The position numbers and the translations under genes were made by a program. Under the pieces are notes generated by a model, which saw only the letters and a list, made by a program, of their open reading frames with translations, was not told the origin of the DNA and ran no database searches. 64,000 bases of DNA from an uncultured Atribacterota bacterium (GTDB lineage Bacteria; Atribacterota; Phoenicimicrobiia; Phoenicimicrobiales; Stramentimicrobiaceae), in assembly GCA_964433635.1 (NCBI GenBank), contig CAYSSG010000007.1:1609-65608 (forward strand), read 5' to 3'. Each line of letters begins with the position of its first letter. The stretch's first letter is position 1. Shown here piece by piece: positions 1,318 to 27,664 of the stretch.

Positions 1318-1436
1318 ATAGGTGAGTCATTAAGTTGATAAAGGCAAACTATCCGAAAGGATAGGGCGCAAAGTCATGGGTCTAAGGCTATAAAAAAATG
1401 CTAGGACTGCCAGATTGCCAGCTTTTTTTATTTTTG
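1318..1436 (+). ncRNA. c-di-GMP-I (GEMM) riboswitch with a downstream U-tract expression platform
   Basis: The sequence AAAGGCAAACTATCCGAAAGGATAGGGCGCAAAGTCATGGGTCTAAGGC matches the conserved GEMM-I core: GGCAAAC, a P2 hairpin with a GAAA tetraloop (CTATCC-GAAA-GGATAG), the GGGxGCAAAG junction, and GGGTCTAAGG (P3 tetraloop-receptor region). A T-run follows at 1423-1435. The element lies in the leader of the 1794..4472 gene. Confidence 0.7.
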
Positions 1437-1793: not shown

Positions 1794-4472
1794 ATGGTTG
1801 ATAAAGAGAAAAGATTATTCATTTTCGGCAATATAAAGGGTAAAGAGGGTGAAAAAGCCCTTGCTGGCTTAACGGTGGAAGCTCTGGATCAAAATCTTTT
1901 GGTAGACAAGCGTTTACGCAGCACAACAACGGGGCAGGATGGCAGTTTTGAAATTTTCTTTACAGGAAAAAAGGTCGAAGAAATCTTTCTTGATCAGAAG
2001 CCTGATATCTATCTAAGAATAAAAAACCAGATGGGAGAAGTAATCCATGTTACTGAAAATAAGGTTCGGTATGAACCTGCAGGAGGAAAAGCGTGTCAAA
2101 TTCGCATTCCGGAAGATCTACTTGAGAAGGCAGCAGTAGAGGTCGAACGATCACAGTTCAAACGATTTCTTTCCATCAATCCGAATTACTTTGGAAATGT
2201 GATAGATGAAAAGATGAAGGCCATTCATCCAGCCATTTATCCTATTTCGAAAAAGACCAAATACGAAGAATTATGCTGTGTGGGATTGTATCCTGAAGAT
2301 AATCTGCTGGAAGCGGTGCTGGAAGTCAAACTGCCTTTTGGTTACAATGGTTCGCTCTGCACAGCGGGAAGCAAAGAGTATGTCTCCTTTTATATCGATT
2401 ATAACGACGGTAGCGGTTACACAAGTACCGGGGCAGCTGTTGCGGTGAATGTCCATAACTTCTCTTCTGTAAGCGGAGGACATCTTTTTTATGCAGTTCG
2501 AAAACCATTTACTCCCAAAGCATATCTGAAGTGCGATCAACCACAACTCGTTAAAGTGAGGGCTATTCTTTCCTGGGAAAAACTGCCTCTTGGTCCTGAC
2601 TTTATCCCGGTGTGGGGTAATGTTCTTGATTCCTGGGTTCAGATCAAACCAAAAAAAACCTGGCCTTTTGTCATGCCTATTCCTGCCTATGAATTCAAAC
2701 CTTTGGAAAAAATGGAAGACCTTCAGACATCCACAAACATAGTGCCTGAGGCTGTTGAAGCCATGATTCCATATGCTGAAAAATTGATGATGATCGGTGG
2801 TCAGGATGAAATGAAGGATCTGTTAGAAAAATCAATGAAGGCCGAAAAGAGGGTAAAAGAAGAAGGAAAGGTAGAAAAAGAGAGGTTTGATTTTAAACAG
2901 TGCATCAGCAAAAATCCCAATTATTTTGGCGCGATCAGTGAATCAAAAGATAAAGACAAGGTAATGAAAGCATTATATGATTTGCCACCAAAGACGATCC
3001 AGGATTTGCTTCCCAAAATAGCAATTGATCCTGAATGGCTCGTCCCGGTAAAACCATTGTTAGTCAATACCAAATATGAAGCATTGCGCTGTGTCGGCTT
3101 TCATCCCGAGGATGATCTGCTGGAAGCAATCATCGAGATTAAACAGCCCTACGGTTTTAATGGAGACCTGTGTACCTTAGGCAGCAAGGAGTATGTCGTC
3201 TTTTATATTGATTGGGGAGACGGTTCTGGTTTTCAGCATGTTGCCACGGCAACAGTAGGCGTTCACGACATCCCTGCAATCAACAGTCAACATCTGTTTT
3301 ATGCTGTGAAAGCGAATATAACCTCCAAACCGAAGGAATGCACAATTGAGAATATCGTCAGGGTAAGGGCAATACTTTCCTGGAACCAGGATCCCACACC
3401 TTTTGGTCCAAACTATAACCCGGCATGGGGAAACATGCTGGAAAGAGATATTCAAATAAGACCAAAAGACGGGGCAAGCGTCCAATGCGAGATTGAAATT
3501 GTCAATGAAGTTCATGCAGATGACATCAGTTCATTCGGCAGCAGTAAAGGACTTGCCGTGAAAATTGATTCTTCGAATCATGCTGTTGCAGGAACTTTTG
3601 ACAGGCCATTTGGAGGCATTATTGGGTGCTGGGGAAAAATCAATGTTCCAGGTGCCCACTATTATCGATTCCGCTACAGTGATGATAGTGGCCTATCCTG
3701 GAAAAATATTACCGATAAAAGGATAGCAAGAAATCCCCTTCCCTGGATTTCAACCATCGAACGATACCCGGATTTAGAAGGATGGTTCAGTATCAGTGAC
3801 TATCAGGTTGATGTGGCAAATTATTCGTTGAGCGCATTGGTACATTGGGATAGTTCCGGGAATAATGGAGATTACCTACTGCGACTTGAACTGGGCGATG
3901 CAGGAAAGAATTTACTACCCGGGCAAAGCGCGGAAGCCCCTGTTCGTTTAGACAACAAAGGGATTGACCTCTTTGAGTTTGGAGGCACCCCCACACCTCT
4001 GCCTGCAGAAGGAGTCGTGGTTAAGGATAGCGCCAATCATTACCGGAAATGCGACACATTTAATGGGGATGAAGCGATTAATATTTTCGGCAACTTCAAG
4101 GATGATTATTTCAGAAACTTCGTTCTGACAGTGTTTGGAGGAAATATTGCGGTTTCCGGAGTTGCATTTGGTTCCGGAAGATATGATTCGGGGATTTTTG
4201 ATAAAGATGGTAATCCGCTTCCAGCCCTGAGTGGACATATCAATGATAAAGGCATAACCTTCGCAGCCGATGGTGGAATGGGGCAGGAAATAGGGACCCT
4301 GAATTTATGTACCATTTCTCAGTCTCCCGGTCAAGTAAAATGTGCCTACGGGATCAAACTGACGGTTTGGGATAGGGCAATTGTCGGCTATATCAGAGGG
4401 TATGAATTTGACACTACGTGTCATGGAAGACATGCTTATGTCACCTTTGACTGGGATCCAGTCGGTTGTTAG
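1794..4472 (+). CDS. Large hypothetical protein (892 aa) with an N-terminal transthyretin/carboxypeptidase-regulatory-like segment and an internal tandem duplication of ~246 aa, no signal peptide
   Basis: Long ORF with a GGAGG RBS at 1781-1785. The two repeat copies (~aa 120-365 and ~366-610) share NPNYFG...KYE(E/A)L.CVG..PED.LLEA..E.K.P.G.NG.LCT.GSKEYV.FYID..DGSG...HLFYAV...VRAILSW. The N-terminus (FIFGNIKGKEGEKALAGLTVEALD...TTGQDGSFEIFF) resembles a CarbopepD_reg/transthyretin fold. Confidence 0.8.
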   Translation: MVDKEKRLFIFGNIKGKEGEKALAGLTVEALDQNLLVDKRLRSTTTGQDGSFEIFFTGKKVEEIFLDQKPDIYLRIKNQMGEVIHVTENKVRYEPAGGKACQIRIPEDLLEKAAVEVERSQFKRFLSINPNYFGNVIDEKMKAIHPAIYPISKKTKYEELCCVGLYPEDNLLEAVLEVKLPFGYNGSLCTAGSKEYVSFYIDYNDGSGYTSTGAAVAVNVHNFSSVSGGHLFYAVRKPFTPKAYLKCDQPQLVKVRAILSWEKLPLGPDFIPVWGNVLDSWVQIKPKKTWPFVMPIPAYEFKPLEKMEDLQTSTNIVPEAVEAMIPYAEKLMMIGGQDEMKDLLEKSMKAEKRVKEEGKVEKERFDFKQCISKNPNYFGAISESKDKDKVMKALYDLPPKTIQDLLPKIAIDPEWLVPVKPLLVNTKYEALRCVGFHPEDDLLEAIIEIKQPYGFNGDLCTLGSKEYVVFYIDWGDGSGFQHVATATVGVHDIPAINSQHLFYAVKANITSKPKECTIENIVRVRAILSWNQDPTPFGPNYNPAWGNMLERDIQIRPKDGASVQCEIEIVNEVHADDISSFGSSKGLAVKIDSSNHAVAGTFDRPFGGIIGCWGKINVPGAHYYRFRYSDDSGLSWKNITDKRIARNPLPWISTIERYPDLEGWFSISDYQVDVANYSLSALVHWDSSGNNGDYLLRLELGDAGKNLLPGQSAEAPVRLDNKGIDLFEFGGTPTPLPAEGVVVKDSANHYRKCDTFNGDEAINIFGNFKDDYFRNFVLTVFGGNIAVSGVAFGSGRYDSGIFDKDGNPLPALSGHINDKGITFAADGGMGQEIGTLNLCTISQSPGQVKCAYGIKLTVWDRAIVGYIRGYEFDTTCHGRHAYVTFDWDPVGC

Positions 4473-4871: not shown

Positions 4872-6440
4872 ATGAAAGAAAAACCTGTTATCTTTGTTGC
4901 TTTTCAAGAACAGGACAATCTGGGGATCGGCTATCTCTCATCAATGCTGATCCAGGCCGGGTTTCCAATTAAAATCATTGATTTTCGTGACGGTAAAGAA
5001 GAGATACTAACCAATATTCATCTGCATCAACCCATAGTAGTCGGTTTTTCAATTATATTCCAGTATCACATTCATGATTTCAAAGATTTACTACAATATT
5101 TGAGAGACCAGGGGGTCGATTGTCATTTCAGTGCAGGAGGACATTATCCCAGTTTAAGGTATCAAGACCTGTTAACAACGATTCCTCAGCTTGATTCGGT
5201 TGTATTATTTGAAGGGGAATATACCTTTCTTGCATTGGTAAAATCGATCTATGCCGGTAAGGAATGGAAACATATTCCAGGAATTGCCTATGGAGAGAAC
5301 GGTTTTCATATTGCCAATCCCCTGCGGCCATTGGAAGAAAATCTTGATAAGTTCCCCGTTCCGGTCCGCCGTCCCTTGCGGGAATATGTTCTTGGAAAAA
5401 AGTATGCCACAATTTTGGCGGGACGTGGGTGTTTCTATCATTGTTCATTCTGTAGTATAAGAGAGTTTTATTCCCGTCCTACCGGTCCAATAAAACGGTT
5501 GAGAAATCCTGAAATGGTGGTGCGGGAAATGGAGTTGTTGCTTAAGCAGATGGATGCTTCTATCTTTATGTTTCAGGATGATGATTTTCCGGTTGCCGGA
5601 AAGATCGGGATTGAGTGGAGTAAGAGATTTTGTGAAGAATTAAACAAAAGAGGATTACGTGAAAAAATATTATGGAAGATCAATTGCAGACCGGATGAAG
5701 TGGAACTGGATACATTTAAACGCATGAAAGATACAGGTTTATTCTTAGTTTATCTGGGCATTGAATCCGGGACCGATGAGGGTTTGCGTCTTATGAATAA
5801 AAAGATGAAAGCTGAAACCAGCCTGAAGACAGTTTATCTGCTTAAAGAGCTCGGTATTCATTATGACTTCGGTTTTATGCTCTTTGATCCGTCCAGCACT
5901 TATCAATCCATTTCGGATAATCTTGATTTTTTAGAGGAATTATGTGGTGATGGTTCTTCCCCTATAACGTTTTGTAAGATGCTTCCCTATGCGGAAACGC
6001 AGATTGAATATCAATTAAGAAAAGAAGGGAGATTAAAAGAGAAGGCCGGGTATATGGATTATGAATTTTATGATCTTTCACTCAATCATTTTTACGATTT
6101 CATCAAGGATTGTTTTCGGGAGTGGATTACAGACCATGAGGGATTGCTCAATATCGCCAGATGGGCAAGATATCATGCACTGGTCTATCAAAAATATTTT
6201 CCGAATTCCCCACAATTTGACGATTTACAAAAAACAATCACTGCCGTTATTGCCGAAAGCAATCTATTCTTTATCCATACATGCAGGAAAGTGATTAATC
6301 CGTTTAATGTCCCTGATGCGGGAAATTGTGATTATAAGAGTTTAGTAAAAGTAAAAGCGGAAGTAGATCAAAAGCACCTGGAATATCAATTGAAACTGCG
6401 TCATTTGATAAAGAATTTAGAAACGTTTGGGAGCTGCTGA
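4872..6440 (+). CDS. B12-binding domain radical SAM protein (class B radical SAM)
   Basis: N-terminal cobalamin-binding-like Rossmann segment (VIFVAFQEQDNLGIGYLSSMLIQAGFPIKIIDF) followed by the CxxxCxxC radical SAM motif (GRGCFYHCSFCSI). 522 aa. Confidence 0.85.
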   Translation: MKEKPVIFVAFQEQDNLGIGYLSSMLIQAGFPIKIIDFRDGKEEILTNIHLHQPIVVGFSIIFQYHIHDFKDLLQYLRDQGVDCHFSAGGHYPSLRYQDLLTTIPQLDSVVLFEGEYTFLALVKSIYAGKEWKHIPGIAYGENGFHIANPLRPLEENLDKFPVPVRRPLREYVLGKKYATILAGRGCFYHCSFCSIREFYSRPTGPIKRLRNPEMVVREMELLLKQMDASIFMFQDDDFPVAGKIGIEWSKRFCEELNKRGLREKILWKINCRPDEVELDTFKRMKDTGLFLVYLGIESGTDEGLRLMNKKMKAETSLKTVYLLKELGIHYDFGFMLFDPSSTYQSISDNLDFLEELCGDGSSPITFCKMLPYAETQIEYQLRKEGRLKEKAGYMDYEFYDLSLNHFYDFIKDCFREWITDHEGLLNIARWARYHALVYQKYFPNSPQFDDLQKTITAVIAESNLFFIHTCRKVINPFNVPDAGNCDYKSLVKVKAEVDQKHLEYQLKLRHLIKNLETFGSC

Positions 6441-6616
6441 CCTGTCGGGAGAGTGTCTGTTACACCTGCAAAGTCAATTTATTTCTACATTTCAGGACAA
6501 GAACCTATGACTTGTACTTGGAATAAGATCATTCGCTGCTCATTCATCGTTAATCCCTGTATTTTATGATCACTAAGCAAAAGAGCAAATAAAGTGAAGA
6601 ATAGAAATGTTAGGAT

Positions 6617-6645
6617 TTGACATATCAATCTTAACAATATATAAT
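6617..6645 (+). promoter_or_regulatory. Consensus sigma-70 promoter: TTGACA, 17-nt spacer, TATAAT
   Basis: TTGACA lies at 6617-6622, a 17-nt spacer follows, and TATAAT lies at 6640-6645. This is 30 nt upstream of the GGAGGA RBS of the DGQHR gene. Confidence 0.55.
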
Positions 6646-6674
6646 TGGAATACAAAATTTGGAGGACTAAGAAA

Positions 6675-8021
6675 ATGGGCTTGAGAGTTACGGGTGTAAG
6701 ATTTAATCAGCATGATATCGAATTTTTAATTGGTTTTGCCAAGGCTGGAGACCTCTTAAGACAAAGCAGGACCGATGAGTGGAGTCCTACCAATTCCAAA
6801 GGTTACCAGCGAGAGATTATCGAAAGAAGGGCAAAAGAATTTGGCAATTTTGTTGCTAAAAACGGGATATCTCCCAATGCCGTTTTATTAAATATCAGGG
6901 ATGCGGATATGAATAGCATCAAGAGAATTACGGAAAATGTATTCGAGGTTCCCGCAGATATACCACTGTGGATTGTCGACGGGCAGCACCGGTTAAAAGG
7001 CTTAGCGTATGCCGGGGAAAACCATCCTGAACTTCTGGATATTAATATCCCCATTGTGCTGATGAACTTAAAATCCCGCGATCCGGATTTGGCCAGAAAC
7101 CAGGAAGCTACCCAGTTCCTTATTATTAATAAAACCCAGAAAGGAGTACGTTCTGATTTAGCCGAACGTATTCTGGCTCAAGCCGAAGAAATAAATAAAC
7201 AGTATGAAGATCTGGACATACCAACCTTTTTAAGAAGAGGCAGATCAGATATGAATCAAAAACAGATAGCATCCAAGATAGAAGAAACCAGGAAAGAGAA
7301 TATTCCCCAATATAACAGAGAGAGTTTCAAAAAGAAAGATGCAATAGAATACAGTAATGAAGCCTATGTGGATTATCAAGAATATAATCATTCGACTACA
7401 CGCGATGATACCAGACAGAATATCCTTCCCAGTAACCTAAAGAGGGAATTGCGCTGGAAACCCCGGGCAGTCCGCATTTCTGATGCCTTGAATAACCGCC
7501 CGGATTCTCCGCTGCAGGGTAGAATGAAATTACCCAACGCTCGTCCCCGGGGTACCACCTTCAGCCAGGTCTCCATGGTCAGTTCGCTGAAAAATGTCTT
7601 AAGTGCAGCTCCTTTTTCTCGTTTAAGCGATGATGAACTGGCTTCCGTTCTGATCAATTTTTGGAAGGCATTTAAAGCGCTTTGTCCGGAACCCTTCCAG
7701 GAAGTGGAAAGAAAACAGAGGGCTGATGATTATGTGCTGCTGAAAACCACAGGAATATTTGTCATACCCAAACTATTAGTGGGAATTGATCCCTATCTTC
7801 CACGGAAACAAGGGATGGCTATCTATACTGTTGAGATCTTCAAGCAATTCTTGTCCCTTGCTGGTGAGCTGATGAAATCCAGCTTCTGGCGTTCAGCAGG
7901 CCTGGGGACTGCCGGTGCCTTTGGGACTGGCCAGAAGAGTTTTTCCCATATCGCCCGGATGATGATCAAACAAATGATCACGAAGGGAGATGATCAGGGA
8001 AAGCAAAAGGTGATTCTATAA
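6675..8021 (+). CDS. DGQHR domain protein (DndB-like)
   Basis: The literal motif DGQHRLKGL sits in ...IPLWIVDGQHRLKGLAYAG... The start at 6675 has RBS GGAGGA 8 nt upstream. The in-frame ATG at 6645 sits inside the -10 box and is rejected. Confidence 0.8.
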   Translation: MGLRVTGVRFNQHDIEFLIGFAKAGDLLRQSRTDEWSPTNSKGYQREIIERRAKEFGNFVAKNGISPNAVLLNIRDADMNSIKRITENVFEVPADIPLWIVDGQHRLKGLAYAGENHPELLDINIPIVLMNLKSRDPDLARNQEATQFLIINKTQKGVRSDLAERILAQAEEINKQYEDLDIPTFLRRGRSDMNQKQIASKIEETRKENIPQYNRESFKKKDAIEYSNEAYVDYQEYNHSTTRDDTRQNILPSNLKRELRWKPRAVRISDALNNRPDSPLQGRMKLPNARPRGTTFSQVSMVSSLKNVLSAAPFSRLSDDELASVLINFWKAFKALCPEPFQEVERKQRADDYVLLKTTGIFVIPKLLVGIDPYLPRKQGMAIYTVEIFKQFLSLAGELMKSSFWRSAGLGTAGAFGTGQKSFSHIARMMIKQMITKGDDQGKQKVIL

Positions 8022-8045
8022 TCTATTATGAGGAAGTGAAAAGTG

Positions 8046-9035
8046 ATGGAAACGATAATCAGCAATTTTATTGCACAGATCCGCTTTGGAGAGGTAGTAA
8101 GTTTTCAGAATATGCAGGTCATTCCTCTTTTTTCGGGTCAAAAAGAAGATCTGGTGTACTTAACTTTAAAAGAGGCCCTGGAAAAAAGGTATTTATTGAT
8201 ACAGGAGGTCAGTAAGGGAGGTTCGGTGCCGGATCTGAAGGTGACTAATCAGGCAGATATTCCAGTACTGCTCCTGGATGGAGAGGAGTTAGCGGGAGCC
8301 AAACAGAACCGGGTATTAAATACCACCATCCTGGTACAGGCAAAGTCAGAAATGATCATCCCGGTCAGCTGTACCGAGCAGGGCAGATGGTCTTATAAGA
8401 CCAATCATTTCTATGATTCTGAAATTGTTTCTCCTGTTTTCCTGCGAGCCAGGAAAGCCTCTTCTATAAATGCTTCCTTAAAGCAGAACAAGACATTTTG
8501 CTCTGACCAAGGTGCTGTCTGGGATAGTGTGGCTTTCTTAAGAAATAAAGCGAAAGTTGAGTCAGCGACCGGGGCGATGAAGGATGTCTTTGAACAGAAA
8601 AAGGAGACTCTGGAGGACTATATCAAGGCCTTCAGGCTCGTGCCTTCCCAGAGGGGAATCCTGGTCTTTGTGGATGGTGAGGTTGCAGGATGGGATATTC
8701 TCTCTCGCGGGGAATCTTTTCAGGTACTGTTTCCCAAGCTGATTAAGAGTTATGCCATGGATGCCTTAATCAAAGATCAGAAAAAGATTATCCTTTCCCG
8801 GAATCCTGAAGAGGAAGCCAGGCTTTTTTTGGAGGGAATAAAAGATTGCCGGGAAGAGAAATATCCTTCTACCGGGTTGGGAGAAGATTTTCGCTTTGAG
8901 GGTTCGGACAAGGTCGGCTCGGCACTGGTAGTTGAGAAGCAGGTCATTCACATGGCCTTTTTCAGGATGAATAAGGAAGAACAGACCGGCCGGATGTCCG
9001 GGTATGAAAGAAGAAGAGGATACCGTATCTACTAG
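8046..9035 (+). CDS. Conserved hypothetical protein, partner of the DGQHR gene
   Basis: It starts 24 nt after the DGQHR stop, with GAGGAAG upstream. 329 aa with no recognisable catalytic motif. Same strand and orientation as the DGQHR gene, implying co-transcription. Confidence 0.65.
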   Translation: METIISNFIAQIRFGEVVSFQNMQVIPLFSGQKEDLVYLTLKEALEKRYLLIQEVSKGGSVPDLKVTNQADIPVLLLDGEELAGAKQNRVLNTTILVQAKSEMIIPVSCTEQGRWSYKTNHFYDSEIVSPVFLRARKASSINASLKQNKTFCSDQGAVWDSVAFLRNKAKVESATGAMKDVFEQKKETLEDYIKAFRLVPSQRGILVFVDGEVAGWDILSRGESFQVLFPKLIKSYAMDALIKDQKKIILSRNPEEEARLFLEGIKDCREEKYPSTGLGEDFRFEGSDKVGSALVVEKQVIHMAFFRMNKEEQTGRMSGYERRRGYRIY

Positions 9036-9196: not shown

Positions 9197-10390
9197 ATGA
9201 ACAAATATAATTTTGATCAGATTATCTCACGAAAGGGTACGTACAGTGCTAAGTGGCAGGGATATGAGAGGAAGTTCCCCGGCTATGATGTGGAAGGTGC
9301 CTTGTGCATGTGGGTAGCAGACATGGATTTTCTCTGTCCCGAAGAGGTCATTTCAGCTGTCGTCAACAGAGCAAAGCATGGTATCTATGGTTACACCTCA
9401 GAAGATGCCGTTGATGCATTTAAAGAGGCAGCTTCCGGCTGGTTTGCCAGGCATTATGGGCTGAAAACAAATGTTGAGTGGATGCTATTTATAAGCGGAG
9501 TTGTCCCATCGATCAATGCGGCTATTCAGGAATTTACTGAACCGGAAGATGGTGTGATCATACAGCAGCCTGTTTATTATCCTTTTAACGAAGCGATCAG
9601 AGATTGCGGCAGGACGATCAGGGTGAATCAGCTTATTGAGAAAGATGGCTATTATGAAATGGATTTTGAAAACCTGGAGAAATTGGTAAAGGAAGAGAGA
9701 ACCAAACTGATCATTTTATGCAGCCCTCATAATCCGGTTGGGCGGGTTTGGACAAAAGATGAGCTCATTCGCCTGGGCAGGATTTGCTGTGAAAATGGTG
9801 TTTTAATCTATTCTGATGAGATTCATGCCGATTTTATCATGAAAGGGAGTAAATTTGTTTCTGCAGGAACCCTGTCTGCTGATACCACTGATAACCTCAT
9901 TTTATCCTTTGCTCCCAGCAAAACATTTAACATAGCCGGCCTGTGTACCTCTGTTATTGTTATTCCGAATAAGAAGATCAGAGAGCGAATGAAAAAGAGA
10001 ATAACAATGAACAGCTACCCTGACGCTAATGTATTTGGCCCCATTGCAGGAGAAGCTGCCTACCGCTATGGTGATGACTATATAAAGGAATTAAAAGAGT
10101 ATATCGAATCAAATTTTGATTACGCAGCAGCATATAGTAAAGAATATCTGCAGGGAATAAGAATAACAAAGCCCGAAGGAACTTATCTGGCCTGGGTGGA
10201 TTTTAGAGATACCGGGATGAGCAACAAAGAGATTAATTCCTTTGTATTGGAAAAAGCAAAGATAGCAGTAGACCCCGGAGAGTGGTTTGGTGCCGGAGGG
10301 GAAGGATTTATCAGAATGAATTTTGCCTGTCCCGAGTCCATGGTAGACGAAGCCATGGAAAGATTAAAAAAAGCACAGAACTATGTCTGA
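9197..10390 (+). CDS. PLP-dependent C-S lyase / aminotransferase class I-II (PatB/MalY family, cystathionine beta-lyase-like)
   Basis: Aminotransferase fold motifs, a PLP-lysine context (SFAPSKTFNIAGL) and a PatB/MalY-like N-terminus (KWQGYERKFPGYDVEGALCMWVADMDF). Confidence 0.85.
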   Translation: MNKYNFDQIISRKGTYSAKWQGYERKFPGYDVEGALCMWVADMDFLCPEEVISAVVNRAKHGIYGYTSEDAVDAFKEAASGWFARHYGLKTNVEWMLFISGVVPSINAAIQEFTEPEDGVIIQQPVYYPFNEAIRDCGRTIRVNQLIEKDGYYEMDFENLEKLVKEERTKLIILCSPHNPVGRVWTKDELIRLGRICCENGVLIYSDEIHADFIMKGSKFVSAGTLSADTTDNLILSFAPSKTFNIAGLCTSVIVIPNKKIRERMKKRITMNSYPDANVFGPIAGEAAYRYGDDYIKELKEYIESNFDYAAAYSKEYLQGIRITKPEGTYLAWVDFRDTGMSNKEINSFVLEKAKIAVDPGEWFGAGGEGFIRMNFACPESMVDEAMERLKKAQNYV

Positions 10391-19229: not shown

Positions 19230-19305
19230 GGGGATATAGCTCAGTTGGGAGAGCGCTGCGTTCGCATCGCAGAGGCCAGGGGTTCGAATCCCCTTATCTC
19301 CACCA
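19230..19305 (+). tRNA. tRNA-Ala (anticodon CGC), CCA encoded
   Basis: The cloverleaf was read by hand. Acceptor GGGGATA/TATCTCC with the G3:U70 Ala identity pair; D-arm GCTC-AGTTGGGA-GAGC; anticodon stem CTGCG/CGCAG with loop TTCGCAT; T-arm AGGGG-TTCGAAT-CCCCT; discriminator A followed by CCA. Confidence 0.9.
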
Positions 19306-27093: not shown

Positions 27094-27124
27094 GATAATA
27101 AAAAAAACCTGCGTGGAGGTTAGG

Positions 27125-27664
27125 ATGATAAGAAGTAATTCTAATAAGAGCCAATCCGGGATCCAGCTACTACTAAAGGTAATTCAAGTAATTGAAGATT
27201 ATGGTTCTTTTTTAGCCTTTATGGTCATGATTGTTCTAGTGAACCTTGCTATTTTTTTAAGAATAACGGTTAATTTTGAAAGTTCATCATGGGAAGAAAT
27301 TGCTCGGTTTTCTTCTATCTGGATGTATATGCTGGCAATTGCTGTTGCCTCTCAAGAAGATTCCCACCTCCGCGCCGGTTTTTTAGACAATTACATTCAT
27401 TCTGAAAAGAATAAATATTTATTAGAAGTAATTTTTAAAGTTATCATGGCCATTTGTATTTTCATTTTTATCTGGTGGTCTTATGAACAGATTAACTGGA
27501 TTTTTGGAACAAAACAAAAGTCTTTGGTGTTAATGATTGACATGTGGGTAGTGTACCTTTCCTTTGTAGTGGGGGGTATTTTTGCCCTGATTCACACGAT
27601 TTATTATCTGTATTATTATATGCAGAAATATCGGCAATCTCTGAAGGGGTTACAAGATGAATAG
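27125..27664 (+). CDS. dctQ: TRAP transporter small permease (DctQ family)
   Basis: ~180 aa with four predicted TM helices. It lies between the dctP and dctM genes. ATG at 27125 follows GGAGG. Confidence 0.7.
   Translation: MIRSNSNKSQSGIQLLLKVIQVIEDYGSFLAFMVMIVLVNLAIFLRITVNFESSSWEEIARFSSIWMYMLAIAVASQEDSHLRAGFLDNYIHSEKNKYLLEVIFKVIMAICIFIFIWWSYEQINWIFGTKQKSLVLMIDMWVVYLSFVVGGIFALIHTIYYLYYYMQKYRQSLKGLQDE

What the first reader, a model, noticed from the sequence alone, without database searches (positions are those of the whole stretch)
6617..9035. Separately promoted two-gene module: DGQHR (DndB-like) protein plus a conserved hypothetical partner, a candidate undescribed defence-type system
The first gene carries the literal DGQHR signature (WIVDGQHRLKGL). 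That domain family is otherwise known from DndB of DNA phosphorothioation clusters and from DpdB-like proteins of 7-deazaguanine DNA-modification clusters. None of the expected partners is present in the window: no dndACDE/dptFGH, no sspBCD, no TGT-like dpdA. Instead the gene is followed after 24 nt by a 329-aa protein with no recognisable motif. The pair has its own perfect sigma-70 consensus promoter (TTGACA-17-TATAAT at 6617-6645). It is inserted between unrelated metabolic genes (a B12-radical SAM enzyme upstream, PatB downstream). A ParB/DndB-fold protein paired with an unknown partner, autonomously transcribed in an accessory context, is the architecture expected for a compact sensor/effector immunity or DNA-modification-surveillance module.
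Basis: partly seen in the sequence, partly recalled or inferred. Interest (0 to 1): 0.75.

Follow-up and report, generated by a model that had tools for sequence, protein, structure and literature searches.

The report
DGQHR regulator plus ARPP enzyme operon
A ParB-like "DGQHR" DNA-binding protein and an uncharacterised predicted enzyme (ARPP/DUF6569) form a small operon that travels with its own consensus promoter and a palindromic control site in a few uncultured bacteria; it looks like an undescribed variant of a predicted, never tested, anti-virus system.

Summary
The sequence observation holds. Gene A (6675-8021, 448 aa) has the DGQHR motif and a ParB/Srx-type N-domain. Gene B (8046-9035, 329 aa) follows after 24 nt. 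The only 12/12 sigma-70 consensus promoter in the 64 kb lies at 6617-6645.

One claim is wrong. Gene B matches Pfam ARPP-1 (PF20208, NCBI "DUF6569") over its full length, E=1e-99. ARPP has been described only computationally, in ARG-centred ADP-ribose conflict systems (PMC9503650).

Gene A is neither a DndB nor a DpdB orthologue. The window holds no Dnd, Dpd, Ssp, ARG or WYL genes.

The pair is conserved in a narrow clade; the named members are Atribacterota. It sits in four unrelated genomic contexts, and the two genes co-diverge (r=0.84). In all four contexts the perfect promoter is overlapped by a 29-bp palindrome (TGTTAGGATT-N9-AATCCTAACA). A shorter form of this palindrome also precedes related DGQHR genes that lack ARPP.

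Close ARPP relatives instead sit beside REase-ARP, AbiEi, WYL or XRE-M78 proteins.

Best reading: a DndB-like, nucleotide-responsive autorepressor controls an ARPP effector. A defence role is inferred, not shown, and the local neighbours are metabolic genes. I rate it a new variant of a known, predicted kind, of moderate interest.

The parts
6608..6636 (+). 29-bp imperfect palindrome TGTTAGGATT-TGACATATC-AATCTTAACA (arms match 9 of 10). It overlaps the -35 box and the spacer. Putative operator.
   Evidence: Read. The same element lies upstream of the DGQHR gene in L001, L196/L087 and L200. The core TAGGAyT-N9-AATCyTA also precedes the DGQHR genes of L173/L174, which have no ARPP, and of L088, whose downstream DNA is missing. 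A degenerate form precedes the solo gene in L193. The core pattern occurs in 13 of 200 fetched loci; in the contexts I inspected it lies just upstream of a DGQHR gene. Binding by gene A's product is inferred.
6617..6645 (+). Sigma-70 consensus promoter TTGACA-17-TATAAT (12/12).
   Evidence: It is the only exact match in the 64 kb; 0.09 are expected. A 12/12 promoter lies at the equivalent place in L001, L196 and L200.
6661..6665 (+). Ribosome-binding site GGAGG for gene A.
   Evidence: Sequence; 9 nt before the ATG at 6675.
6675..8021 (+). Gene A: DGQHR-domain protein, 448 aa. It has a ParB/Srx-fold N-domain (about aa 1-165) and a helical C-domain (about aa 253-440).
6978..6992 (+). DGQHR motif (D102-R106), the predicted nucleotide-binding motif.
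   Evidence: Invariant in 46 aligned family members. The equivalent DGQQR motif of DpdB and SspE is tied to NTPase activity in PMC10164549.
7182..7439 (+). Variable, charged insert of about 85 aa (roughly aa 170-255) between the two domains.
   Evidence: Present in the 423-467 aa ARPP-paired proteins and absent from the 363-388 aa relatives (alignment; lengths). pLDDT below 50 over most of it. Its role is unknown.
8030..8036 (+). Ribosome-binding site GAGGAAG for gene B, inside the 24-nt intergenic gap.
   Evidence: Sequence.
8046..9035 (+). Gene B: ARPP-1 / DUF6569 protein, 329 aa. Predicted enzyme with a fold not seen in the PDB.
8370..8372 (+). Codon of Cys109 in the invariant PVSCTEQGRW motif; candidate catalytic residue.
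   Evidence: Invariant in 42 aligned ARPPs, together with D78-G-E-E81, G84-A-K-Q-N-R89, E111, R114, W115 and H302. PMC9503650 reports an absolutely conserved Cys and Gln for the family.

Best explanation
This is a self-contained two-gene operon. It is a previously unlisted variant of the ARPP-centred predicted conflict systems.

Gene A encodes a DGQHR/ParB-fold protein. Like DndB, it most likely binds as a dimer to the 29-bp palindrome that overlaps the -35 box. That would keep a consensus-strength promoter shut until a nucleotide-dependent signal releases it.

Gene B, co-transcribed 24 nt downstream, encodes ARPP. ARPP is a predicted enzyme with an invariant Cys/Gln-containing site. The only published proposal is that it acts on ribose or ADP-ribose-type sugar moieties. 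Here it would be the effector that is made on derepression.

Shown: the domain identities; the ParB fold; the conserved gene pair, promoter and palindrome; co-divergence of the two genes; the absence of Dnd, Dpd, Ssp, ARG and WYL genes from the window; and the swapping of partners in both families.

Inferred: that gene A's product binds the palindrome and represses; that a nucleotide controls it; that ARPP is an enzyme, and what its substrate is; and that the module defends against phages or other invaders.
For: 1. Pairing. DGQHR and ARPP are adjacent on the same strand with gaps of 24-40 nt. Four different contexts were seen:
- the window: radical SAM | pair | aminotransferase;
- L001: cation ATPase | pair | B3_4;
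- L196/L087: LarA and a 214-aa gene | pair | VWA-like and PEGA;
- L200: MetK and a 197-aa gene | pair | 171-aa gene.
L086 adds another pair.
2. Co-divergence. Pairwise distances of the two proteins over 9 pairs correlate at r=0.84; none of 2000 permutations reached this.
3. Control region. All four contexts have a 12/12 TTGACA-17-TATAAT promoter overlapped by TGTTAGGAyT-N9-AATCCTAACA, while the rest of the intergenic DNA is not conserved.
4. The palindrome follows the DGQHR gene, not ARPP. Its core precedes the solo 386-aa DGQHR gene of L173 and, in degenerate form, that of L193. It also precedes the DGQHR gene of L088, whose downstream is unknown. It is absent upstream of the REase-ARP + ARPP pair of L006.
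5. Family-wide, 8 of 26 upstream regions of DGQHR genes carry an inverted repeat longer than in at least 95% of dinucleotide shuffles.
7. ARPP's usual neighbours. Among 80 other ARPP loci the recurrent neighbours are WYL-WCX transcription factors (17 loci), ADP-ribosylglycohydrolase (10), DUF2779 (6) and HTH-M78 (6). AbiEi_4 is the upstream neighbour in a BrxL/AbiE island. DGQHR therefore occupies a position often held by a regulator.
8. ARPP relatives were not found on viral contigs, as expected for a host-side system.
Against: - No experiment exists for any ARPP protein or for this DGQHR subfamily.
- In all four contexts the neighbours are metabolic or transport genes, not defence islands.
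- The pair is confined to a small clade. The named members are Atribacterota, so vertical inheritance of a lineage-specific housekeeping function is not excluded.
- The position next to ARPP is not always held by a regulator. In L006 it is the nuclease REase-ARP. Published partners include HIRAN.
- The window's own palindrome, taken alone, is not significant against shuffles (p=0.14). Its weight comes from conservation across loci.
- No helix-turn-helix was identified in gene A's C-domain, and that domain has no solved structural match.
- Gene A's best specific profile hit is DpdB, an ATPase helper, rather than DndB.
Confidence: 0.5

Rival explanations
1. DpdB-type helper model. Gene A is a DNA-stimulated ATPase that loads on or opens DNA, as DpdB does for the transglycosylase DpdA. 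ARPP would then act directly on DNA, for example on a deoxyribose, an abasic site or an ADP-ribosylated base. The pair would be a DNA-modification or DNA-lesion-processing machine rather than a regulator plus effector. This model is compatible with gene A also regulating itself.
For: - Gene A's best specific profile matches are DpdB (PADLOC 2.7e-12; NCBIfam NF041060 1.9e-12), ahead of DndB (4e-4; 0.013).
- DpdB is a DNA-stimulated ATPase required for DpdA activity, without forming a stable complex with it (PMC10164549).
- The two genes are tightly coupled and co-diverge.
- The paired DGQHR proteins carry a clade-specific insert that could be a docking element.
- ARPP's other published partner, HIRAN, binds DNA 3' ends. 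The authors compare ARPP's Cys to SRAP, which cross-links to DNA sugars (PMC9503650).
- REase-ARP, a DNA nuclease, replaces DGQHR next to a 72%-identical ARPP.
Against: - The DpdB model scores 46.7 bits against a cut-off of 300.
- There is no dpdA or TGT-like gene; ARPP has no similarity to TGT or to any solved fold.
- Many ARPPs sit beside plain transcription factors.
- The conserved operator is enough to explain a regulatory role.
Confidence: 0.25
2. Lineage-specific housekeeping or stress-response operon of Atribacterota and relatives. It would handle endogenous ADP-ribose or sugar-damage products, or a DNA-damage response. It would be vertically inherited and have no role in conflict with mobile elements.
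For: - All four contexts are made of metabolic and transport genes.
- One variant (P0247) is identical across many samples and always sits at the same locus: it is indexed in 64 blocks of the collection, and the 24 contigs read reduced to near-identical neighbourhoods.
- The pair's GC content is not an outlier.
- Co-divergence fits vertical descent as well as joint transfer.
Against: - Within the same ARPP clade the partner is swapped. L006, an Atribacteria MAG, has REase-ARP + ARPP beside a PLD-SNF2 helicase and an Eco57I-like methylase, and it nests inside the DGQHR-paired clade.
- The sister ARPP clade lies in a BrxL/AbiE island.
- The closest DGQHR relatives without ARPP lie among methylase, HNH, PIN and integrase genes.
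- The flanks differ completely between genomes while the promoter and operator travel with the pair.
Confidence: 0.15
3. Toxin-antitoxin-like or addiction module. ARPP is a toxic enzyme, and the DGQHR protein is both its transcriptional repressor and its neutraliser.
For: - A two-gene operon with a very strong promoter under a putative autorepressor is the usual layout of type II TA modules.
- ARPP relatives sit beside AbiEi_4, an antitoxin-type regulator.
Against: - At 448 and 329 aa, both proteins are large for TA components.
- There is no evidence of toxicity.
- Solo DGQHR genes with the same operator exist without ARPP.
- ARPPs without any neighbour of this kind also exist.
Confidence: 0.07
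4. A stray piece of an ordinary Dnd or Dpd locus whose other genes lie outside the window.
For: The DGQHR motif, and weak hits to the DpdB and DndB profiles.
Against: - The equivalog models are far below cut-off: DndB 14.5 against 328, DpdB 46.7 against 300, DGQHR_dnd_1 42.5 against 450.
- No Dnd, Dpd or Ssp hit among 52 window proteins.
- In the inspected contexts (flanks of 2-10 kb) the called neighbours include no dnd or dpd genes.
Confidence: 0.03

Closest known systems
ARPP-containing, ARG-centred NAD+/ADP-ribose conflict systems (Iyer, Burroughs, Anantharaman & Aravind, Viruses 2022; PMC9503650). These are predictions only.
   Same: Gene B is a full-length member of the same ARPP family, with the conserved Cys and Gln. 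Like those systems, the ARPP gene is tightly coupled to a variable partner, and the partner changes between close relatives.
   Different: The paper lists HIRAN, WYL and an aminosugar deacetylase as the other two-gene partners. It never mentions a DGQHR or ParB partner.
DndB, the regulator of the dndBCDE phosphorothioation operon (He et al. 2015, PMC4507180).
   Same: It has the DGQHR motif and belongs to the ParB superfamily. It is the first gene of its operon, and a palindromic inverted repeat lies in its own promoter. DndB binds TACG-N10-CGTA palindromes and regulates its own operon.
   Different: Only the N-terminal ~160 aa match the Pfam DndB model. The TIGR03233 score is 14.5 against a cut-off of 328. 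There are no dndCDE genes. The palindrome sequence is different, and here it overlaps the -35 of a perfect consensus promoter.
DpdB, the ATPase partner of DpdA in the 7-deazaguanine DNA modification system (Gedara et al., NAR 2023; PMC10164549).
   Same: It is the best specific profile hit for gene A. It has a ParB-fold N-domain with a DGQxR motif and a helical C-domain, and it works with one enzymatic partner encoded next to it.
   Different: Gene A scores 46.7 bits against a cut-off of 300. The partner is ARPP, which is unrelated to the TGT-like DpdA. There are no dpdC-K genes. Neither ATPase activity nor DNA modification is known here.
KorB and other ParB-family transcriptional repressors.
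   Different: There is no sequence-level relationship. No helix-turn-helix was identified. Whether CTP or ATP is the ligand is unknown.
WYL-type (CapW/BrxR-like) repressors of defence operons. This comparison rests on my own knowledge of that literature.
   Same: The architecture is the same: a ligand-responsive repressor encoded next to the genes it controls. WYL-WCX transcription factors are the commonest ARPP neighbours (17 of 80 loci).
   Different: The protein fold is different (ParB/Srx rather than HTH-WYL-WCX). WYL genes are often divergently oriented to ARPP. The DGQHR gene is co-oriented and immediately upstream in every pair seen.

Membership tests
DGQHR domain family (TIGR03187) | Profile score above the curated cut-off, and a literal DGQHR motif. 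| tested here: met
   109.2 bits against a cut-off of 58.85, E=3e-31. D102-G-Q-H-R106 is invariant in 46 aligned relatives.
ParB/Srx superfamily | ParB/Srx fold in the N-terminal domain. | tested here: met
DndB (TIGR03233 / PF14072) | Equivalog-level, full-length match to the profile. | tested here: not met
   TIGR03233 scores 14.5 bits against a cut-off of 328. The Pfam DndB model passes its domain cut-off, but only positions 3-159 of 338 are matched.
DndB (TIGR03233 / PF14072) | Encoded with dndCDE (and dndA). | tested here: not met
   No Dnd hit among 52 window proteins. None in the flanks of the orthologous pairs. The rest of the genome could not be examined.
DndB (TIGR03233 / PF14072) | Binds palindromes in its own promoter and regulates its operon. 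| tested here: inconclusive
   A conserved 29-bp palindrome overlaps the -35 box and travels with the gene. Binding itself cannot be tested with these tools.
DpdB (NF041060) | Equivalog-level match to the profile. | tested here: not met
   46.7 bits against a cut-off of 300.
DpdB (NF041060) | Encoded next to dpdA (TGT-like) within a dpd cluster. | tested here: not met
   No Dpd hit other than gene A itself. The neighbour is ARPP.
DpdB (NF041060) | DNA-stimulated ATPase activity. | not testable with these tools
   Needs purified protein. Only the motif is conserved.
SspE / GmrSD-type DUF262 ParB nucleases | C-terminal nuclease domain with the EHxxP or HNH-type motif. | tested here: not met
ARPP-1 (PF20208 / DUF6569) | Full-length match to the profile above the gathering score. 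| tested here: met
   333.9 bits against 27, covering model positions 1-297 of 297.
ARPP-1 (PF20208 / DUF6569) | Absolutely conserved Cys and Gln (PMC9503650). | tested here: met
   C109, Q87 and other polar residues are invariant in 42 sequences.
ARPP-1 (PF20208 / DUF6569) | Beta-rich fold unrelated to characterised domains (duplicated beta-meander with an inserted barrel). | tested here: inconclusive
ARG-centred conflict system (PMC9503650) | An ADP-ribosylglycohydrolase gene, usually with a phosphatase, next to ARPP. | tested here: not met
   Profiles built from ARG, WYL and DUF2779 neighbour proteins find nothing among the window's 148 ORFs. The Pfam matches of the immediate neighbours show none.
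Known anti-phage defence systems (PADLOC-DB v2.0) | Both genes match the models of one catalogued system. | tested here: not met
   Gene A gives only weak DpdB and DndB hits. Gene B's only hit is Cas7d at E=0.038, which is not significant.

The most novel reading that the evidence does not exclude
The DGQHR protein is more than a repressor. It would be a nucleotide-gated ParB-like DNA clamp that senses foreign or damaged DNA and recruits ARPP. ARPP would then use its invariant cysteine to attack a sugar moiety in DNA (an abasic, ADP-ribosylated or otherwise modified deoxyribose). That would be a new enzymatic mechanism of nucleic-acid immunity or repair, built on a new fold.
Probability: 0.12. 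Interest if true: 0.8.

Novelty: new variant of a known kind. Interest (0 to 1): 0.5.

Why it matters
ARPP/DUF6569 is a large family: 4620 clusters reached E<=0.001 in one search. It has a predicted fold not seen in the PDB and an invariant Cys-containing site. No member has been studied experimentally.

This module is the simplest ARPP setting seen here: one promoter, one putative operator, one putative regulator and one effector. That makes it a convenient handle for finding out what ARPP does.

It would also extend the DndB-type 'ParB-fold autorepressor' beyond phosphorothioation systems. The same DGQHR gene and operator appear to precede different downstream genes (ARPP, or a small YjzC-like ORF followed by a trypsin-like protease), so it may be a portable regulatory cassette.

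The limits are real. Every functional statement is inferred. The clade is small and comes from uncultured organisms. The local gene contexts do not themselves indicate defence.

Tried and rejected
- Ordinary Dnd, Dpd or Ssp locus: rejected. The profile scores are far below cut-off and no partner genes are present.
- Solved structures by sequence: nothing for either protein.
- A general DGQHR-ARPP association: rejected. None of 80 ARPP genome loci and none of 77 more distant DGQHR metagenome loci show the pairing.
- Phage or plasmid origin: no ARPP relative on viral contigs and only distant DGQHR hits. Plasmids hold only distant relatives of either gene.
- Horizontal-transfer signal from base composition: none convincing.
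- Terminators bounding the operon: none found.
- A second operator copy in the window: only a 2-mismatch match at 27119, consistent with chance.
- Organism of the window: look-ups of 11 window proteins returned no names. Comparison with the fetched loci gave no close orthologues. It remains undetermined.
- Literature: no paper mentions DUF6569 or PF20208. ARPP appears only in PMC9503650.
Full report
**1. What is in the sequence**

The region holds two co-oriented genes.

Gene A runs from 6675 to 8021 (448 aa). Its ATG is preceded by GGAGG at 6661-6665. It contains WIVDGQHRLKGL at residues 99-110.

Gene B runs from 8046 to 9035 (329 aa). It starts 24 nt after gene A's stop, behind a GAGGAAG ribosome-binding site.

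TTGACA-17-TATAAT lies at 6617-6645, a 12/12 match. It is the only exact consensus promoter on either strand of the 64 kb; shuffles give 0.09.

The flanking genes are a B12-binding radical SAM protein (4872-6440) and a class I/II aminotransferase (9197-10390). I found no terminator-like hairpin on either side. The 5' end of the transcription unit is therefore well marked, but the 3' end is not.

**2. What the two proteins are**

Gene A is a genuine DGQHR-domain protein: TIGR03187 gives 109 bits against a cut-off of 58.85. It is neither DndB nor DpdB:
- TIGR03233 (DndB) scores 14.5 against 328.
- NF041060 (DpdB) scores 46.7 against 300.
- The Pfam DndB model matches only residues 7-163.

It matches Pfam PF20208 ARPP-1 from end to end (E=1.1e-99). 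NCBI names its relatives DUF6569.

I found only one paper that describes ARPP: Iyer, Burroughs, Anantharaman and Aravind 2022 (PMC9503650). That paper makes these points:
- ARPP is a protein unrelated to characterised domains, with an absolutely conserved Cys and Gln.
- It occurs in ARG-centred systems predicted to counter viral ADP-ribosylation.
- It also occurs in three two-gene neighbourhoods, with HIRAN, with a WYL transcription factor, and with an aminosugar deacetylase.
- It probably acts on ribose moieties, possibly through a covalent Cys adduct as in SRAP.

A DGQHR or ParB partner is not mentioned in that paper. It is also absent from the same group's 2024 Dnd re-analysis (PMC10853773). 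No paper in the library mentions DUF6569 or PF20208.

**3. Is the pair a unit?**

Yes, but only within a narrow clade.

The two genes are adjacent in the same order in four unrelated contexts:
- the window;
- L001-L004: cation ATPase | pair | B3_4;
- L087 and L196-L199: LarA and a 214-aa gene | pair | VWA-like and PEGA;
- L200: S-adenosylmethionine synthetase and a 197-aa gene | pair | 171-aa gene.

L086 adds one more pair. Four further pairs are implied because the two proteins share the same source and contig length. This inference was confirmed in the one case I checked.

Over nine pairs, the pairwise distances of the two proteins correlate at r=0.84. None of 2000 permutations reached that value.

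The named members are from Atribacterota MAGs. They include the adjacent accession numbers MFZ2330251.1 and MFZ2330252.1. I could not determine the organism of the window itself.

Outside this clade the association disappears:
- None of 80 genome loci with ARPP at 43-72% identity has a DGQHR gene within up to 10 kb.
- None of 77 metagenome loci with DGQHR at 45% identity or less has ARPP. Of the three closer loci in that scan, L086 and L087 have the pair, and L088 ends right after the DGQHR gene.

**4. Both genes belong to modular families with swappable partners**

Recurrent neighbours in the other ARPP loci are:
- WYL-WCX transcription factors, 17 loci;
- ADP-ribosylglycohydrolase, 10;
- DUF2779, 6;
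- HTH-peptidase M78, 6;
- metallo-beta-lactamase, 5;
- calcineurin-like phosphoesterase, 4;
- NERD-UvrD, 4.

An ARPP 62% identical to the window's lies behind AbiEi_4 in an island with BrxL, AbiE and REase-ARP.

An ARPP 72% identical, from the Atribacteria MAG UBA4082 (L006), lies behind REase-ARP. It is followed by a PLD-SNF2 helicase and an Eco57I-like methylase. In a neighbour-joining tree it nests inside the DGQHR-paired clade.

On the DGQHR side, the closest relatives are 386 aa long and lack the ~85-residue insert. They have no ARPP. They lie among methylase, HNH, PIN, integrase and radical SAM genes. A 56-aa YjzC-like ORF follows them after 24-34 nt, and in one case a trypsin-like protease follows that. 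Others are truly solitary.

ARPP relatives were not found on viral contigs. Relatives of both genes are rare and distant on plasmids.

**5. The control region is the most informative new observation**

All four contexts carry a 12/12 consensus promoter 30-41 nt upstream of the start codon. The promoter is embedded in a block that is conserved although the proteins are only 56-72% identical and the surrounding intergenic DNA does not align.

The block is a palindrome, TGTTAGGAyT-N9-AATCCTAACA. In the window it spans 6608-6636, and its arms match at 9 of 10 positions. It covers the -35 hexamer and most of the spacer.

Its core, TAGGAyT-N9-AATCyTA, also precedes the solo DGQHR gene of L173/L174 and the DGQHR gene of L088, whose downstream DNA is missing. 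A degenerate, duplicated form precedes the solo gene of L193. It is absent upstream of the REase-ARP + ARPP pair of L006.

The core pattern occurs in 13 of 200 fetched loci. In the contexts I inspected it lies just upstream of a DGQHR gene.

Across the wider family, 8 of 26 upstream regions have an inverted repeat longer than in at least 95% of dinucleotide shuffles.

So the element travels with the DGQHR gene, not with ARPP. That is the pattern expected for the operator of an autoregulator.

There is precedent. DndB binds two TACG-N10-CGTA palindromes in its own promoter and regulates dndBCDE (PMC4507180). That regulation is described as ATP-dependent in PMC10853773. KorB, a ParB-family repressor, is among the structural hits.

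**6. Most likely mechanism (confidence about 0.5)**

Gene A's product most likely binds the palindrome as a dimer and shuts a promoter of maximal strength. A nucleotide-dependent change at the invariant DGQHR site would release it. ARPP would then be made and act as the effector enzyme. ARPP's substrate is unknown; the only published proposal is ribose or ADP-ribose-type moieties.

Which steps are shown and which are inferred is set out in the Best explanation section. In short, identities, fold, conservation, co-divergence and partner swapping are shown. Operator binding, nucleotide control, ARPP's chemistry and a defence role are inferred.

**7. Rivals**

(a) DpdB-like helper model (about 0.25). 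DpdB is the best specific profile hit for gene A. DpdB is a DNA-stimulated ATPase needed by the neighbouring DNA transglycosylase DpdA (PMC10164549). ARPP might therefore work on DNA with gene A's help. Its other partners, HIRAN and REase-ARP, fit a DNA substrate. This model can coexist with autoregulation.

(b) Lineage-specific housekeeping or stress function (about 0.15). The metabolic neighbours, and the stable locus of the widespread P0247 variant, favour this. The partner swapping and the defence-island contexts of both families argue against it.

(c) Toxin-antitoxin-like module (about 0.07).

(d) Fragment of a Dnd or Dpd system (about 0.03). This is contradicted.

**8. Comparison with the known, and verdict**

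The module works most like a DndB-type or WYL-type repressor-controlled operon. Its effector belongs to the ARPP family of predicted ADP-ribose conflict systems.

It is a member of the DGQHR and ARPP-1 families. It is not DndB or DpdB, not an ARG-centred system, and not any PADLOC-catalogued system.

The DGQHR-ARPP pairing and its conserved promoter-operator appear to be undescribed. I class it as a new variant of a known, computationally predicted kind.

Its interpretation is partly supported. The pair is a real, autonomous, conserved module and not a Dnd or Dpd remnant. However, the pairing is narrow, the local contexts are not defence islands, and the defence role is untested.

Interest is moderate (0.5). 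The module offers a clean, minimal entry point to a large uncharacterised enzyme family and to ParB-fold transcriptional control. Nothing here is yet mechanistically demonstrated.

Noticed in passing
window 1334-1423 (+): A c-di-GMP-I-GGC riboswitch aptamer (RF03167, 67.1 bits against a gathering score of 59, E=1e-13). It lies about 370 nt upstream of an 892-aa ORF (1794-4472) that has no Pfam match.
   Followed up: no
L193 5737-8040; L174 6056-7421; L173 7001-8291: The closest DGQHR relatives without ARPP (386 aa) have the same kind of promoter and palindrome. A 56-aa YjzC-like ORF follows 24-34 nt downstream (truncated to 31 aa in L173), and in L193 a trypsin-like protease follows that. The same DGQHR gene and operator may therefore drive different downstream genes.
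   Followed up: partly
L193 about 5655-5710: Upstream of this solo DGQHR gene the operator-like element is duplicated: GGATTT-ATATGTC-AAATCC and GGATTT-GACATAT-AAATCT. Together they form a 22-nt-arm inverted repeat (21 matched pairs) that exceeded all 100 shuffles.
   Followed up: partly
L006 293-9157 (Atribacteria UBA4082): An ARPP 72% identical to the window's is paired with REase-ARP (PF22558) instead of DGQHR. A PLD-SNF2 helicase (1082 aa) and an Eco57I/MmeI-like methyltransferase (1115 aa) follow. This looks like a defence island, and the change of partner looks recent.
   Followed up: partly
L136, L139, L144, L150, L151, L155: Several distant members of this DGQHR family occur as two or three tandem or nearby paralogous DGQHR genes.
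   Followed up: no
L177 about 6925-6970: A 21-nt-arm (20 matched pairs) inverted repeat, ATAGATCCTCAGCGTGGATCT-N7-AGATCCATGCTGAGGATCTAT, lies about 30-80 nt upstream of a solitary 365-aa DGQHR gene. It exceeded all 100 shuffles.
   Followed up: no
window, protein not identified: One of the 52 window proteins matches the PADLOC model PD-T4-2_B at E=4.8e-29. Four match mad3, mad8 or AriA-type ATPase models, probably ABC-transporter ATPases. I did not work out which genes these are.
   Followed up: no
window 19230-19305 (+): A single tRNA-Ala (anticodon CGC).
   Followed up: no
window 27119-27145 (+): A 2-mismatch match to the operator palindrome (GTTAGGATGATAAGAAGTAATTCTAAT), at the start of the ORF 27113-27664. 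It is consistent with chance: 1 of 100 shuffles had two or more matches.
   Followed up: no
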